Of a stretch of DNA of 47,303 nucleotides, positions 33,878-36,185 are shown in pieces (positions within the stretch are counted from its first letter, which is position 1; the number at the start of each line of letters is the position of its first letter). The stretch covers positions 1 through 47,303 of the IMG/VR virus record IMGVR_UViG_3300043425_000872; one strand, 5' to 3'. This DNA comes from a virus. A model generated the notes under the pieces. That model was not told the origin of the DNA and ran no database searches. It saw nothing but the letters and a program-made list of their open reading frames with translations. The position numbers were made by a program, and so were the translations under genes.

Positions 33878-34054
33878 ATGACAGACGAAGAGACCCTCGC
33901 CCTCCTGCGCAAGGTGGACGAGATGCGCGCCGAGCTGCGCCGCCTTGAGCCGGTCTTGAGCCGGGCCTGTGTGGAGTACGGCAAGCGCCGGGGCTGCACC
34001 GGCTTCCGCGACTTCCACGTGCGCAACGACGCCGCGCGGGCGGTGGCGGCATGA
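33878..34054 (+). CDS. Hypothetical protein, 58 aa
   Basis: Hand translation MTDEETLALLRKVDEMRAELRRLEPVLSRACVEYGKRRG... Confidence 0.75.
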   Translation: MTDEETLALLRKVDEMRAELRRLEPVLSRACVEYGKRRGCTGFRDFHVRNDAARAVAA

Positions 34055-34266
34055 GCGGCATAGAGACCGCCATCGCCGCTGCAGGCGGCCGCCGCGCCTT
34101 CGCAGACAGCCTCGACCCGCCCGTGACCGTGCAGGCCGTGTGCCAGTGGGTCAAGCGCGGCTGGGTGCCGCCCACCCGCGCGCTGGAGATCGAGACGCTG
34201 TACCGCGTGGACCGCGCCCTCCTCGTCAAGCCCAGCCTGATCCCCCTCGTCGGCGAACCGGCGTGA
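34051..34266 (+). CDS. Cro/YdaS-like HTH transcriptional regulator
   Basis: AIAAAGGRRAFADSL..VTVQAVCQWVKRGWVPPTRALEIE. Confidence 0.85.
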   Translation: MSGIETAIAAAGGRRAFADSLDPPVTVQAVCQWVKRGWVPPTRALEIETLYRVDRALLVKPSLIPLVGEPA

Positions 34267-36185
34267 GGTACGGCTCGGTTTGCAGCGGCATCGAGGCCGC
34301 CACCGCCGCATGGCACCACATGGGCTGGGAGCCCGCGTTCTTCTCTGAAATCGAGAAGTTCCCGCGCGCCGTGTTGGAGCACCACTACCCTGAAGTGCCG
34401 CTGCACGGCGACTTCACAACCATTGAGCAGAACCAGTATGGAAAGATCGACCTCCTCGTCGGTGGAACGCCCTGCCAGTCCTTCAGCATTGCCGGACTGC
34501 GAGGCGGACTGGATGACGACCGTGGCAACCTCGCCCTTGAGTTTTGCCGACTTGCTCAGCGCGAGCAACCTCGCTGGATTGTCTGGGAAAATGTCCCCGG
34601 TGTCCTGTCATCGAGCGGAGGACGGGACTTTGGTTCCATCCTCGGGGCGCTGGAAGACCTCGGGTATGGCCTCGCCTACCGAGTGCTGGACGCTCAGTAC
34701 TTCGGAGTGGCCCAGCGACGCCGCCGTGTGTTTGTTGTCGGATATCTTGGAGACTGGCGACCTGCCGCAGCGGTTCTTTTTGAGCGCAGCAGCATGTCAG
34801 GGCATCCTGCGCCGAGCAGAGAAGCGCGGAAAGAAGCTGCCCGAGCGGCTGCAGGCGGCACTTACTCGTGTGGCGGCACCGGCGAGTACCGCAGCAGCAG
34901 CAGCAGCAGCCCCCTCCTGCGCACCGGAGCCGACTACGGACACGGAGGCGAAGTCCTCGTCGTGGGCGGAGGACGGGTCGGATCTTGTGTAGACGTAGCC
35001 CCGACGCTGAACGCCGGGGGCAACCGCACGGGCGGCGACAGACCCTACGGCACCTCAGTGGACACATGCGACAGTCTGTGTGTGGCGGTCGTGGGTGCTT
35101 TGGCCTGCAACACAGGCCCCAAGGGCCATGACGCGGGCAACTTTGCGTGCAACCAAGCGGCAGACGAGGGGCGCGTCGTGCCAGTGGTTATCAGCGAAGG
35201 CGTGGACTTGTACAACGGGTCGATAACCGACCAAGTGGCCGCCACCTTCAATGCGTCAAGCGGTGATGCCAACCACAGCGGGCCGAAGGTCATGCACACG
35301 GCTTCGTGCATCGCGTTTCCGGCAGAAATGAGCGCAACTCAAAGTGCCACCACCGAAGAACTGGCCCCAGCACTGTCGGTGAAGCACACGACTGCCGTGG
35401 CTTCGTGCCTCGCGTTCGACACCACGCAGATCAGCAGCCCGCACAACTACAGCAACCCCAAGCCGGGCGACCCGTGCCATCCGCTGGCTGCGGGCGCGCA
35501 TCCGCCCGCCGTCGTTTACGGCATGACCACAGAGCAGACACCGAAGTTCGCGGAGGACTTGGCCCTGACGCTGACGAAGCAGTCCCCAACTGGCGGCGGT
35601 CAGCCGCAGGCCGTGGCCTACTCCATCACGCCCATGAACAGCGGCAAGGACTACAAGGCGCGCGAGACGGACGTCGCGCAGCCGGTCATGGCGGCGGGGC
35701 CGGTGGGTGGCAATCAGGGTGGCGACTTCGTGCTGAGCCACGCCATCCAAGCCGGTGCGCTGCGCACGAACCCCAGCAGCGGCCCAAATGGCGTAGGGGT
35801 GCAGGCAGACCTCGCTTACACGCTGGAGGCCCGCAGCGAGGTGCAGGCCGTGGCGTTCCAGCCCCGCATTGGCCGCAATGGTCGCGGCTACAGCGAGACC
35901 GTTTTCCCCGCGCTGAACGGCGCGGATGCAGGTGCGACCAGTGACATGCGCCCGTGTGTGGCGAATGCCGCCACATCTGCCGTGCGCCGCCTGACGCCTG
36001 TGGAGTGCGAGCGCCTGCAGGGCTTCCCTGACGGCTTCACGGCAATACCGTGGGGCAAGAAGAGCGCTGACGAGTGCCCAGACGGGCCGCGCTACAAGGT
36101 GCTGGGAAACAGCATGGCCGTGCCGGTGATGCGCTGGATCGGCGAGCGCATCCAACTCGTCGATGACTTCGTTTCGTTGTTCTGA
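34263..36185 (+). CDS. DNA cytosine-5 methyltransferase with long modular variable region, 640 aa
   Basis: Start reassigned to GTG 34263; SVCSGIEA (I), GGTPCQ (IV), ENVPG (VI), QRRRRVF (VIII), RRLTPVECERLQGFP (IX), GNSMAVPV (X). Confidence 0.95.
   Translation: MRYGSVCSGIEAATAAWHHMGWEPAFFSEIEKFPRAVLEHHYPEVPLHGDFTTIEQNQYGKIDLLVGGTPCQSFSIAGLRGGLDDDRGNLALEFCRLAQREQPRWIVWENVPGVLSSSGGRDFGSILGALEDLGYGLAYRVLDAQYFGVAQRRRRVFVVGYLGDWRPAAAVLFERSSMSGHPAPSREARKEAARAAAGGTYSCGGTGEYRSSSSSSPLLRTGADYGHGGEVLVVGGGRVGSCVDVAPTLNAGGNRTGGDRPYGTSVDTCDSLCVAVVGALACNTGPKGHDAGNFACNQAADEGRVVPVVISEGVDLYNGSITDQVAATFNASSGDANHSGPKVMHTASCIAFPAEMSATQSATTEELAPALSVKHTTAVASCLAFDTTQISSPHNYSNPKPGDPCHPLAAGAHPPAVVYGMTTEQTPKFAEDLALTLTKQSPTGGGQPQAVAYSITPMNSGKDYKARETDVAQPVMAAGPVGGNQGGDFVLSHAIQAGALRTNPSSGPNGVGVQADLAYTLEARSEVQAVAFQPRIGRNGRGYSETVFPALNGADAGATSDMRPCVANAATSAVRRLTPVECERLQGFPDGFTAIPWGKKSADECPDGPRYKVLGNSMAVPVMRWIGERIQLVDDFVSLF
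34513..34992 (+). CDS. Nested +1-frame ORF, M.EcoHK31I beta-polypeptide-like, 159 aa
   Basis: GAGG 8 nt before ATG 34513; protein-like SEWPSDAAVCLLSDILE..FFLSAAACQGILRRAEKRGKKLP; host frame loses GC3 bias across the overlap. Confidence 0.6.
   Translation: MTTVATSPLSFADLLSASNLAGLSGKMSPVSCHRAEDGTLVPSSGRWKTSGMASPTECWTLSTSEWPSDAAVCLLSDILETGDLPQRFFLSAAACQGILRRAEKRGKKLPERLQAALTRVAAPASTAAAAAAAPSCAPEPTTDTEAKSSSWAEDGSDLV

What the first reader, a model, noticed from the sequence alone, without database searches (positions are those of the whole stretch)
34423..34992. Dual-coding methyltransferase: nested beta-like protein although motifs IX and X are already in the main frame
Seen: a +1 frame open for 189 codons over motifs IV-VIII, its own RBS/ATG at 34513, natural-looking sequence (KMSP..SSGRWKTSGM..CWTL..EWPS..LLSDILE..FFLS..GILRRAEKRGKKLP), and many A/T-ending codons in the main frame over this stretch. 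Established: M.EcoHK31I has a beta polypeptide encoded in an alternative frame inside the alpha gene and supplying motif IX. From memory its N-terminal part resembles this ORF. Here it lacks motif IX, so it would be a non-catalytic partner: regulator, specificity factor or ancestral state of the split enzyme.
Basis: partly seen in the sequence, partly recalled or inferred. Interest (0 to 1): 0.7.

Follow-up and report, generated by a model that had tools for sequence, protein, structure and literature searches.

The report
Hidden gene inside phage methyltransferase gene
A second protein of about 150-180 residues is encoded one base out of step inside this phage's DNA cytosine methyltransferase gene. 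Selection keeps it in every relative examined, from proteobacterial prophages to coliphage P1 and mycobacteriophage Omega, so this is a real and very widespread gene within a gene whose function is still unknown.

Summary
The +1 frame is open over 34423-34992, inside an intact C5 methyltransferase gene (34263-36185).

- **Frame conservation:** I fetched 138 non-redundant homologues by the methyltransferase frame only (52-94% identity, GC 45-67%). The +1 frame is open for at least 144 codons in all 138. The +2 frame has a median of 43.
- **Synonymous sites:** Synonymous shuffling predicts about 3 stops. Synonymous-site variation in the host frame collapses at the nested ATG (34438) and recovers after the nested stop.
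- **Protein-level selection:** An OLGenie-style ratio for the +1 frame is 1.02 upstream, 0.77 early in the overlap and 0.41 late in it. Doubly synonymous sites stay fast, so the constraint acts on protein.
- **After motif VIII:** the nested frame is better conserved than the enzyme frame.
- **Controls:** Other C5 methyltransferase subfamilies in the same genomes lack the ORF.
- **Family size:** 5463 database clusters, no Pfam or NCBIfam family, no informative fold match.

Function is inferred, not shown. Natural variants fuse the nested protein to the enzyme's TRD-IX-X half, which favours an enzyme-associated partner. Similarity to M.EcoHK31I beta could not be tested, and the nested protein lacks motif IX. 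This scan has already reported the same nested gene on other DNA.

The parts
34263..36185 (+). Host gene: an intact C5 DNA cytosine methyltransferase of 640 aa. Motifs I-VIII are followed by a variable region of about 390 aa, then motifs IX and X. The GTG start overlaps the upstream stop (GTGA).
   Evidence: PF00145 E 1.4e-54 and phrog_116 E 1e-88. Catalytic C71, E109-N110-V111, R153/R155, R575 and G615-N616-S617 are invariant in a 96-sequence alignment.
34438..34992 (+). Nested +1-frame gene of 184 codons, from the family-typical ATG to the TAG stop. The frame is already open from the TTG at 34423.
   Evidence: ORF. 1319 homologous proteins in the word-indexed search and 5463 cluster representatives in the profile search. 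Hit to phrog_16143 at E 4e-8. Open in 138 of 138 homologues. +1-frame dNN/dNS is 0.77 then 0.41. Host-frame synonymous entropy drops at host codon 59 and recovers after about codon 200.
34501..34515 (+).
   Evidence: An ATG sits in this alignment column in 76 of the 138 loci, but the host motif G-L-D-D forces it. The ATG at 34438 has no SD-like word in this window, so which start this phage uses is open.
34438..34467 (+). N-terminal peptide of the nested protein, degenerate in this phage (MERSTSSSVE). Most relatives have M-x-Q-[LS]-T-F-[LW]-S-E-E here.
   Evidence: family Q 99/138, F 122/138, E 99/138 and E 116/138. These are kept by host codons xCA, xTT, GGA and GGA even where the host amino acid varies. 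The window has R, S, V and E at those four positions.
34714..34875 (+). Conserved basic helical core of the nested protein (residues 93-146, about 54 aa, pI 9.8). It overlaps host motif VIII and the linker after it.
   Evidence: AF2 pLDDT is about 95 for helices 117-130 and 136-146. +1-frame pairwise identity is 0.69 against 0.61 for the host frame. Nucleotide periodicity switches to the +1 frame in host codons 176-200. Window versus P1-type: 62% identity in +1, 40% in the host frame.
34891..34910 (+). (GCA)6.7 microsatellite in the unconserved tail of the nested ORF. It reads poly-Ala in the nested frame and poly-Ser in the enzyme frame.
35982..36125 (+). Motifs IX and X of the methyltransferase, in the main frame only.
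   Evidence: The motif IX-X HMM hits the main frame in 126 of 138 loci and never the nested-frame stretch.
34051..34266 (+). Upstream YdaS/Cro-like small gene, translationally coupled to the methyltransferase start.
   Evidence: PF15943 E 2.4e-8 and PF14549 E 1e-4. GTGA overlap.

Best explanation
Shown: the +1-frame ORF is a genuine protein-coding gene overprinted on codons of about 59-243 of the phage C5 methyltransferase gene. Selection on its amino-acid sequence is strongest in a basic helical core of about 54 residues that overlaps motif VIII and the linker after it. The gene is an ancient, obligatory companion of this methyltransferase subfamily. Inferred: it is translated from the same early mRNA by its own initiation, at ATG 34438 or ATG 34513. 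Its product works with the enzyme as a non-catalytic partner that binds the methyltransferase and helps hold or regulate its two halves, the catalytic I-VIII part and the TRD-IX-X part. My odds: a real selected protein about 0.9; an enzyme-associated partner about 0.4-0.45. The confidence value given is for the whole statement, partner role included.
For: - Frame openness: the +1 frame is open in 138 of 138 homologues picked by the host frame. The +2 frame is not. Synonymous shuffles predict about 3 stops.
- Host-frame synonymous sites: relative synonymous codon entropy is 0.9 before host codon 58, 0.58-0.72 in codons 58-120, and 0.21-0.47 in codons 121-200. It rises back to 0.71 after codon 200.
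- Pairwise fourfold-site differences: 0.65-0.71 upstream against 0.16-0.26 in the late overlap, within the same gene pairs.
- OLGenie-style +1 dNN/dNS: 1.02 in the upstream control, 0.77, then 0.41. The +2 frame gives 1.4-1.8.
- Doubly synonymous sites stay fast (0.86, 1.05, 0.91), which excludes an RNA- or DNA-level constraint.
- In host codons 176-200 the most variable nucleotide position is host position 1, which is nested position 3.
- Individual nested residues are held while the host amino acid changes.
- A start codon is present in 135 of 138 loci. An SD-like word lies upstream of 70% of the nested ATGs, against 17% of background ATGs.
- Controls in the same genomes: six C5 methyltransferases of other subfamilies have +1 stops 2-18 codons after ENV and no nested-HMM hit. 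A seventh weak hit, L178, is an unexplained exception.
- The gene is present in the +1 frame of P1-type dmt, Pectobacterium phage MA11 gp37 and mycobacteriophage Omega gp127.
- For the partner role: recurrent natural fusions join the nested protein to TRD-IX-X. One exact fusion protein occurs on at least 24 contigs.
- Other relatives are split into I-VIII and TRD-IX-X genes, so the halves must assemble non-covalently.
- In M.EcoHK31I, the N-terminal part of the alternative-frame beta chain drives association with alpha (PMC2836561).
Against: - There is no direct evidence of translation. No RNA or ribosome data could be consulted.
- The protein folds poorly on its own (mean pLDDT 63, residues 47-98 low) and no better inside a natural fusion. 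It has no fold or family match that would indicate function.
- Fusions are a minority, roughly 5% of cluster representatives, and some could be frameshifted pseudogenes.
- The window's copy has lost the family's N-terminal motif, and its upstream ATG lacks an SD-like word.
Confidence: 0.45

Rival explanations
1. The nested protein is real but acts independently of the methyltransferase, and merely rides with this highly mobile gene. It could be a counter-defence factor, a small DNA-binding regulator acting through its basic helical C-terminus, or a protein that docks on a universal host factor such as the beta sliding clamp.
For: - All the selection evidence above applies equally.
- The N-half is acidic and predicted to be disordered, and the C-terminus is a basic helix-turn-helix-like hairpin.
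- The family's N-terminal Q-[LS]-T-F-[LW] peptide resembles the weak clamp-binding consensus Q-L-x-L-F. Omega's copy reads QLDLF.
- Overprinted viral proteins are often accessory (review PMC8227390, listed).
Against: - A factor aimed at one host defence would not be expected to keep about 60% identity between phages of Betaproteobacteria, Enterobacteria and Mycobacteria.
- The recurrent fusions to the enzyme's own C-terminal half point to the enzyme.
- The window's copy lacks the clamp-like peptide.
Confidence: 0.3
2. The +1 frame is reached by programmed ribosomal frameshifting from the methyltransferase frame. The product would be a truncated enzyme with a nested-frame tail, not a separately initiated protein.
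For: - Same strand and same mRNA.
- The window's ATG at 34438 has no SD-like word.
- A few database proteins join host residues 1-55 to the nested sequence (P0136, P0137, P0142).
Against: - A start codon is conserved at the head of the open frame in 135 of 138 loci. SD-like words are enriched four-fold upstream of the nested ATGs.
- Host-frame synonymous constraint begins at that start.
- The chimeric proteins are singletons.
- I did not search for a conserved slippery site.
Confidence: 0.04
3. This is a shadow ORF. The open frame and its apparent conservation are passive by-products of high GC content and a strongly conserved enzyme sequence.
For: - The window is 61-69% GC and has many long non-coding ORFs on both strands.
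- The early part of the nested sequence lies over the nearly invariant motif IV and is partly dictated by it.
Against: - The frame is open in relatives down to 45% GC.
- Synonymous shuffling that keeps protein and codon usage predicts stops.
- The +2 frame and other methyltransferase subfamilies in the same genomes are not open.
- dNN/dNS is below 1 only in +1 and only inside the ORF, and doubly synonymous sites are unconstrained.
- The nested frame is more conserved than the host frame after motif VIII.
Confidence: 0.04
4. The ORF is a direct homologue of the M.EcoHK31I beta subunit that has lost motif IX, or an ancestral state of that split enzyme.
For: - Both are encoded in an alternative frame inside the methyltransferase gene (PMC2836561).
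- Beta has an N-terminal part of 40-70 residues needed for association with alpha.
- Several first-stage readers recalled a similar segment. That is recall, not evidence.
Against: - Beta is defined by carrying motif IX while alpha lacks it. Here motif IX is in the main frame and absent from the nested protein.
- No sequence comparison was possible.
Confidence: 0.15

Closest known systems
M.EcoHK31I (E. coli HK31, YGGCCR), a heterodimeric C5 methyltransferase whose beta chain is encoded in another frame inside the alpha gene
   Same: A second polypeptide is encoded entirely within a C5 methyltransferase gene, on the same strand, in a different frame. The N-terminal part of beta mediates association with alpha (PMC2836561), which is the role I infer here.
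   Different: Beta supplies motif IX and alpha lacks it. Here the enzyme frame has all ten motifs and the nested protein has none. Sequence relatedness is untested. The present family is phage-borne, orphan and very large.
Naturally or artificially split C5 methyltransferases: M.AquI-type alpha I-VIII with beta IX-X, and bisected M.HhaI and M.SssI
   Same: Relatives of this gene occur split into an I-VIII gene and a TRD-IX-X gene (Omega gp127/gp128, L059, L071, L183, L184). That shows the two halves can work as separate chains. Fragment complementation of such enzymes is documented (PMC3404938 and PMC3439449, listed).
   Different: The window's enzyme is a single chain. The nested protein is a third product with no methyltransferase motif. 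In some split relatives it forms the N-terminus of the second chain.
Overprinted (same-strand overlapping) genes of viruses, detected by suppressed synonymous variation
   Same: It has the classic signature: a conserved open alternative frame, a synonymous-rate dip bounded by the ORF, and a partly disordered novel protein with no homologues outside the overlap.
   Different: Most established long overlaps are in small RNA or ssDNA viruses. This one is about 150 codons long, lies in dsDNA tailed phages and prophages, sits over the catalytic motifs of an ancient enzyme, and is shared by phages of hosts in different bacterial phyla.
phrog_16143 (PHROGs family annotated 'DNA methyltransferase', 139 positions)
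   Same: The nested protein matches it (E 4.3e-8, residues 39-126). So the ORF has been called in deposited phage genomes.
   Different: The PHROG name gives it the enzyme's function, but the sequence has no methyltransferase motif. The name probably comes from position, not from any test.

Membership tests
Overlapping protein-coding gene under purifying selection | The alternative frame stays open across diverged homologues more than codon usage predicts. | tested here: met
   138 of 138 open for at least 144 codons. Shuffles expect 3.0 stops and P(0) averages 0.08. The +2 frame has a median of 43 codons.
Overlapping protein-coding gene under purifying selection | Host-frame synonymous variation is suppressed, with boundaries matching the nested ORF, and not through nucleotide-level constraint. 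| tested here: met
   Relative synonymous entropy goes from 0.9 to 0.58 at host codon 59 and back to 0.71 after codon 200. Fourfold-site differences are 0.68 against 0.20. Doubly synonymous sites are unconstrained.
Overlapping protein-coding gene under purifying selection | dN/dS-type ratio below 1 for the alternative frame (OLGenie-style dNN/dNS). | tested here: met
   +1 frame: 1.02 upstream, then 0.77 and 0.41 inside. +2 frame: 1.4-1.8. This is my own simplified implementation, on non-independent pairs and without a phylogenetic correction.
Overlapping protein-coding gene under purifying selection | Own translation start with a ribosome-binding site. | tested here: inconclusive
   Family: ATG in 110 and GTG/TTG in 25 of 138 loci; SD-like word upstream of 70% of those ATGs against 17% of background. 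Window: ATG 34438 has no SD, and ATG 34513 has GAGG 8 nt upstream.
Overlapping protein-coding gene under purifying selection | Direct evidence of translation. | not testable with these tools
No ribosome-profiling or proteomics data were at hand.
M.EcoHK31I-type beta subunit | Encoded in an alternative frame entirely inside the methyltransferase gene. | tested here: met
   The feature is described in PMC2836561.
M.EcoHK31I-type beta subunit | Carries conserved motif IX, which the large chain lacks. | tested here: not met
   The nested protein has no PF00145 hit. The motif IX-X HMM never hits the nested-frame stretch in 138 loci and hits the main frame in 126. Motif IX is in the window's main frame.
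M.EcoHK31I-type beta subunit | Sequence similarity to M.EcoHK31I beta. | not tested
   No sequence was available: no supplement is held and the original paper is not held.
M.EcoHK31I-type beta subunit | Required for methylation activity and binds the large chain. | not testable with these tools
   Needs an enzyme assay or pull-down.
C5 DNA cytosine methyltransferase, PF00145 (the host gene) | Motifs I, IV (PCQ), VI (ENV), VIII (QRR), IX and X (GNS) in one frame. | tested here: met
   PF00145 E 1.4e-54. Invariant catalytic residues in a 96-sequence alignment.
Beta-clamp-binding proteins (Q-L-x-L-F peptide) | A terminal peptide matching Q1-L2-x-L4-F5 (PMC4549789). | tested here: not met
   The window's copy reads R-S-T-S-S at the aligned positions. 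In the family, 110 of 139 match a loose Q-[LSIMV]-x-[FLM]-[LWFSM] pattern, and Omega has QLDLF. That is a resemblance only. Binding is untested.
Split C5 methyltransferase (alpha I-VIII, beta TRD-IX-X) | Catalytic motifs divided between two genes. | tested here: not met
   The window's enzyme is one 640-aa frame. Split forms exist in relatives L059, L071, L167, L182, L183 and L184.

The most novel reading that the evidence does not exclude
The nested protein is an adaptor that ties the phage methyltransferase to the replisome. Its conserved C-terminal helices would hold the enzyme or DNA. In most family members, though not in this window's copy, its N-terminal Q-L-T-F-[LW] peptide would dock on the beta sliding clamp, so that new phage DNA is methylated at the fork before host restriction enzymes see it. 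This would be a bacterial-virus counterpart of DNMT1 recruitment by PCNA, encoded inside the enzyme's own gene.
Probability: 0.1. Interest if true: 0.9.

Novelty: new variant of a known kind. Interest (0 to 1): 0.8.

Why it matters
Long same-strand overlapping genes are considered rare outside small viruses, and annotation pipelines suppress them. This one spans about 150 codons, lies over the catalytic motifs of one of the best-studied enzyme families, and shows a clean selection signature. It is shared by thousands of phage and prophage methyltransferase genes across bacterial phyla, including the model phage P1 (dmt) and mycobacteriophage Omega.

- If the product is a partner of the enzyme, these widespread "orphan" phage methyltransferases are two-protein machines. 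Work on their specificity, timing and anti-restriction role has then missed a component.
- If it acts independently, it is a new, deeply conserved phage accessory protein.
- Either way it is directly testable in P1 and E. coli with mutations that are silent in one frame.
- It also explains a practical artefact. Gene callers often pick the nested ORF and truncate the methyltransferase, which puts thousands of "hypothetical proteins" and a misnamed PHROG into databases.

Tried and rejected
- **Relatives of the window's genome:** I used genomes behind fetched loci instead.
- **Pfam, NCBIfam and PADLOC on the nested protein:** nothing significant. There is one weak PADLOC hit of a homologue to a Type II methyltransferase profile (E 0.011), which I do not trust.
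- **Structure of the nested protein:**
  - AF2 gave mean pLDDT 63.
  - Foldseek against the PDB found no match at E <= 0.001.
  - VIA wide gave a best Z of 4.2, on a helical hairpin.
  - The Atlas shape search gave TM <= 0.32.
  - The Atlas feature search returned only unnamed viral clusters.
  - These results are uninformative. They are not evidence of a new fold.
- **AF2 of a natural fusion** (P0234, nested plus TRD-IX-X), to see whether the disordered middle becomes ordered: it did not (pLDDT 59.8). This says little either way.
- **M.EcoHK31I beta sequence:** no supplement is held and the 1995 paper is not held. A plasmid search returned almost only P1-type dmt.
- **Literature searches** for a described nested gene in phage cytosine methyltransferases: none found in the held library. 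Subscription journals are largely absent from it.
- **Rejected:** the 738-codon GTG-started ORF 33969-36185 in the ORF list is an upstream read-through of the enzyme frame, not the gene.
- **Rejected:** fused "long" forms as the norm. Only 25 singletons turned up in the longer-protein search, and none among 138 enzyme-selected loci.
Full report
**What is there**

The window is a 47.3-kb virus record of about 65% GC. At 34263-36185 it carries an intact C5 DNA cytosine methyltransferase of 640 aa (PF00145 E 1.4e-54). Its GTG start overlaps the stop of an upstream YdaS/Cro-like gene, and a PriCT_2/AAA_25 primase-helicase gene follows it. The enzyme has motifs I-VIII, then a variable region of about 390 residues, then motifs IX and X, all in one frame.

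The +1 frame is open from 34423 to the TAG at 34990-34992, which is 189 codons. In-frame ATGs lie at 34438 and 34513. Host GC3 is 0.86 before the overlap, 0.60 within it and 0.77-0.83 after it.

**Is it more than a GC-rich shadow ORF?**

The translated ORF has no Pfam family. It does match phrog_16143 (E 4e-8), 1319 predicted proteins of mostly 150-165 residues, and 5463 cluster representatives in a profile search of 1.84 billion proteins. In two loci reached through such proteins, the homologue is again nested in the +1 frame of a fully open methyltransferase frame. There the gene caller had chosen it over the enzyme's 5' half.

To avoid circularity I then fetched 160 loci using only the enzyme's N-terminal 200 residues. 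They share 52-94% identity. They come from viral contigs and from genomes labelled Pseudomonadota, Acidobacteriota, Chloroflexota, Actinomycetota, Planctomycetota, Treponema and others. In the 138 non-redundant genes (GC 45-67%):

- The +1 frame is open for at least 144 codons around motif VI in all 138, with a median of 182.
- The +2 frame has a median of 43 codons, and only 6 of 138 reach 120.
- Shuffling synonymous codons within each gene predicts 3.0 stops over the 151-codon core and a mean 8% chance of none. Yet 135 of 137 have none, and the +2 frame is not depleted.
- All 138 score at least 124 bits against the nested-family HMM.

**Selection on the nested protein**

Relative synonymous codon entropy of the host frame is about 0.9 up to host codon 57. 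It falls to 0.58 at codons 58-70, where the nested ATG lies, and reaches 0.21-0.26 in codons 161-200. It rises back to 0.71 once the nested ORFs end.

Within the same gene pairs, shared fourfold codons differ at the third position in 65-71% of cases upstream. In the late overlap the figure is 16-26%.

I ran an OLGenie-style count of changes that are non-synonymous in the host frame, split by their effect in the alternative frame. The results:

| Region (host codons) | +1 dNN/dNS | Doubly synonymous rate |
|---|---|---|
| Upstream control | 1.02 | 0.86 |
| 60-120 | 0.77 | 1.05 |
| 121-200 | 0.41 | 0.91 |

- The +2 frame gives 1.4-1.8 everywhere.
- Sites synonymous in both frames evolve as fast inside the overlap as outside it. 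The constraint is therefore on the +1 protein, not on RNA structure or mutation rate.

In host codons 176-200 the nucleotide periodicity is that of the nested frame. Entropy is 1.35, 0.72 and 0.67 at host positions 1, 2 and 3. The nested frame is more conserved there than the enzyme frame (0.69 against 0.61).

Single columns show the same thing. Host codon 61 varies between Pro, Ala and Ser but is almost always xCA, which keeps a nested Gln. Host codon 64 is Leu, Val or Ile but always xTT, which keeps a nested Phe. Two invariant Gly codons are GGA in 99 and 117 of 138 genes, which keeps Glu-Glu.

**Specificity and breadth**

Five bacterial genomes that carry the phage-type gene also hold C5 methyltransferases of other subfamilies. 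Six of those have +1 stops 2-18 codons after ENV and no nested-HMM hit. All seven phage-type copies have the nested ORF. One weak hit, L178, is open for 220 codons without an HMM match and remains unexplained.

In deposited phage genomes the nested sequence lies under annotated methyltransferase genes of Caulobacter, Roseobacter, Vibrio, Mycobacterium, Streptococcus, Faecalibacterium and Burkholderia phages, and under P1-type dmt. It also lies under dmt in 529 mostly P1-like plasmids. I checked three by hand, and each has a 159-172-codon open +1 frame: RCS47 dmt, Pectobacterium phage MA11 gp37 and Omega gp127.

Over the 52 codons from motif VIII onward, the window compares as follows:

| Comparison | Enzyme frame identity | Nested frame identity |
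|---|---|---|
| Window vs P1-type | 40% | 62% |
| Window vs Omega | 53% | 63% |

**Anatomy of the product**

The family-typical start is the ATG aligned with 34438. An ATG occurs in that zone in 110 of 138 loci and GTG or TTG in 25 more. SD-like words lie upstream of 70% of those ATGs, against 17% of background ATGs. In this window that ATG has no SD-like word, whereas ATG 34513 has GAGG 8 nt upstream. The start used by this phage is therefore open.

The protein has an acidic N-terminal part (residues 1-95, pI 4.5) and a basic core (residues 96-146, pI 9.8). An unconserved tail contains a (GCA)6.7 repeat. AF2 with 105 homologues gives mean pLDDT 63. It predicts confident helices at residues 19-44 and 117-146, the latter at about 95, and a low-confidence middle. 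No fold or family search was informative.

Most relatives begin M-x-Q-[LS]-T-F-[LW]-S-E-E. This window's clade reads MERSTSSSVE, because its host codons end in C rather than T.

**What it probably does**

This part is inference. Three things point to the enzyme itself as the partner.

- First, the gene never occurs without the enzyme, and its core is conserved across phages of unrelated hosts. In those hosts the constant possible partners are the co-encoded enzyme, DNA, or universal host machinery.
- Second, there are recurrent natural fusions. About 5% of the best cluster representatives, and most of the 25 longer hits, are nested protein plus TRD-IX-X in one chain. In these the I-VIII part ends in its own frame. 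One such exact protein is on at least 24 contigs of 10-50 kb, so it is not a sequencing error.
- Third, other relatives are split differently. Omega gp127/gp128 has a stop in the enzyme frame. L059 and L071 have the TRD-IX-X ORF in the nested frame just after the nested stop. So the two halves of this enzyme must assemble non-covalently in nature. In the one characterised precedent, M.EcoHK31I, the N-terminal part of the alternative-frame beta chain provides the affinity for alpha (PMC2836561).

I therefore favour a non-catalytic, enzyme-binding partner that staples or regulates the two halves, at about 0.4-0.45. An independent accessory function is the main rival, at about 0.3.

A speculative variant is that the N-terminal peptide resembles the weak clamp-binding consensus Q-L-x-L-F (PMC4549789). 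Omega's copy reads QLDLF, but the window's copy lacks the motif.

**Comparison with the known, and novelty**

The closest precedent is M.EcoHK31I. It shares the gene-within-a-methyltransferase-gene layout. The nested protein fails beta's defining feature, which is motif IX, and sequence similarity could not be tested. I found no description of this nested gene in the held literature.

Earlier notes of this scan describe the same nested ORF on other genomes. One follow-up (e1-5354903) reached the same conclusion, including its presence in P1 dmt. I re-derived the conservation, selection and P1 results independently here. I could not test its claim of predicted binding.

**Verdict**

The ORF is a real, ancient, widespread overlapping gene. 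Its function is unknown but probably tied to the enzyme. It is best described as a new variant of the "second polypeptide inside a methyltransferase gene" theme, and it is of high interest because it is directly testable in phage P1.

Noticed in passing
window 35000-35900 (methyltransferase residues about 248-540): The 390-residue variable region holds three TL-type TRD-like motifs, at residues 256, 444 and 528 (APTLNAGG, ALTLTKQS, AYTLEARS). This resembles multispecific phage methyltransferases with tandem target-recognition domains. Relatives range from 285 to 642 aa through this region alone.
   Followed up: partly
L059:1498-3022, L071:832-3163, L167:807-2156, L183:1281-2409, L184:1245-2412, L182:80-1019: The family shows at least four layouts. 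One is a single chain, as in the window. One has a stop in the enzyme frame before TRD-IX-X (Omega gp127/gp128). One has TRD-IX-X as a separate ORF in the nested frame right after the nested stop (L059, L071). One has the nested protein fused to TRD-IX-X (L182-L184). L183's fusion protein is on at least 24 contigs.
   Followed up: partly
window 34438-34467; L167:1021-1500: The family's N-terminal peptide Q-[LS]-T-F-[LW]-S-E-E is held by unusual host codons (xCA, xTT, GGA, GGA) and resembles the beta-clamp-binding consensus. Omega's copy reads QLDLF. The window's clade has lost it (RSTSSSVE).
   Followed up: partly
L001:1653-2153, L004:4001-4465 and neighbours: Gene callers picked the nested ORF and left only a short 3' fragment of the methyltransferase, although the enzyme frame is fully open. 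In the window, the nested frame has higher GC3 than the enzyme frame in the overlap (0.72 against 0.60). This probably explains the thousands of "hypothetical proteins" and the PHROG named "DNA methyltransferase".
   Followed up: partly
window 34891-34910: A perfect (GCA)6.7 microsatellite lies inside both reading frames. It reads poly-Ser in the enzyme linker and poly-Ala in the nested tail, and is a possible slippage site that would change both products in steps of one residue.
   Followed up: no
L178 (G002:C1:3718-7203): A weakly matching C5 methyltransferase-like ORF (27 bits to my N-terminal HMM, 258 aa) lies about 2 kb from a phage-type copy (L174). Its +1 frame is open for 220 codons but does not match the nested-family HMM. 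It could be chance in GC-rich DNA or a very divergent nested gene.
   Followed up: no
window 33969-34262: The ORF list shows a 738-codon GTG-started ORF that extends the methyltransferase frame about 100 codons upstream, across the YdaS/Cro-like gene. The extension is Arg/Pro-rich read-through, not coding. The real start is the GTG at 34263.
   Followed up: yes
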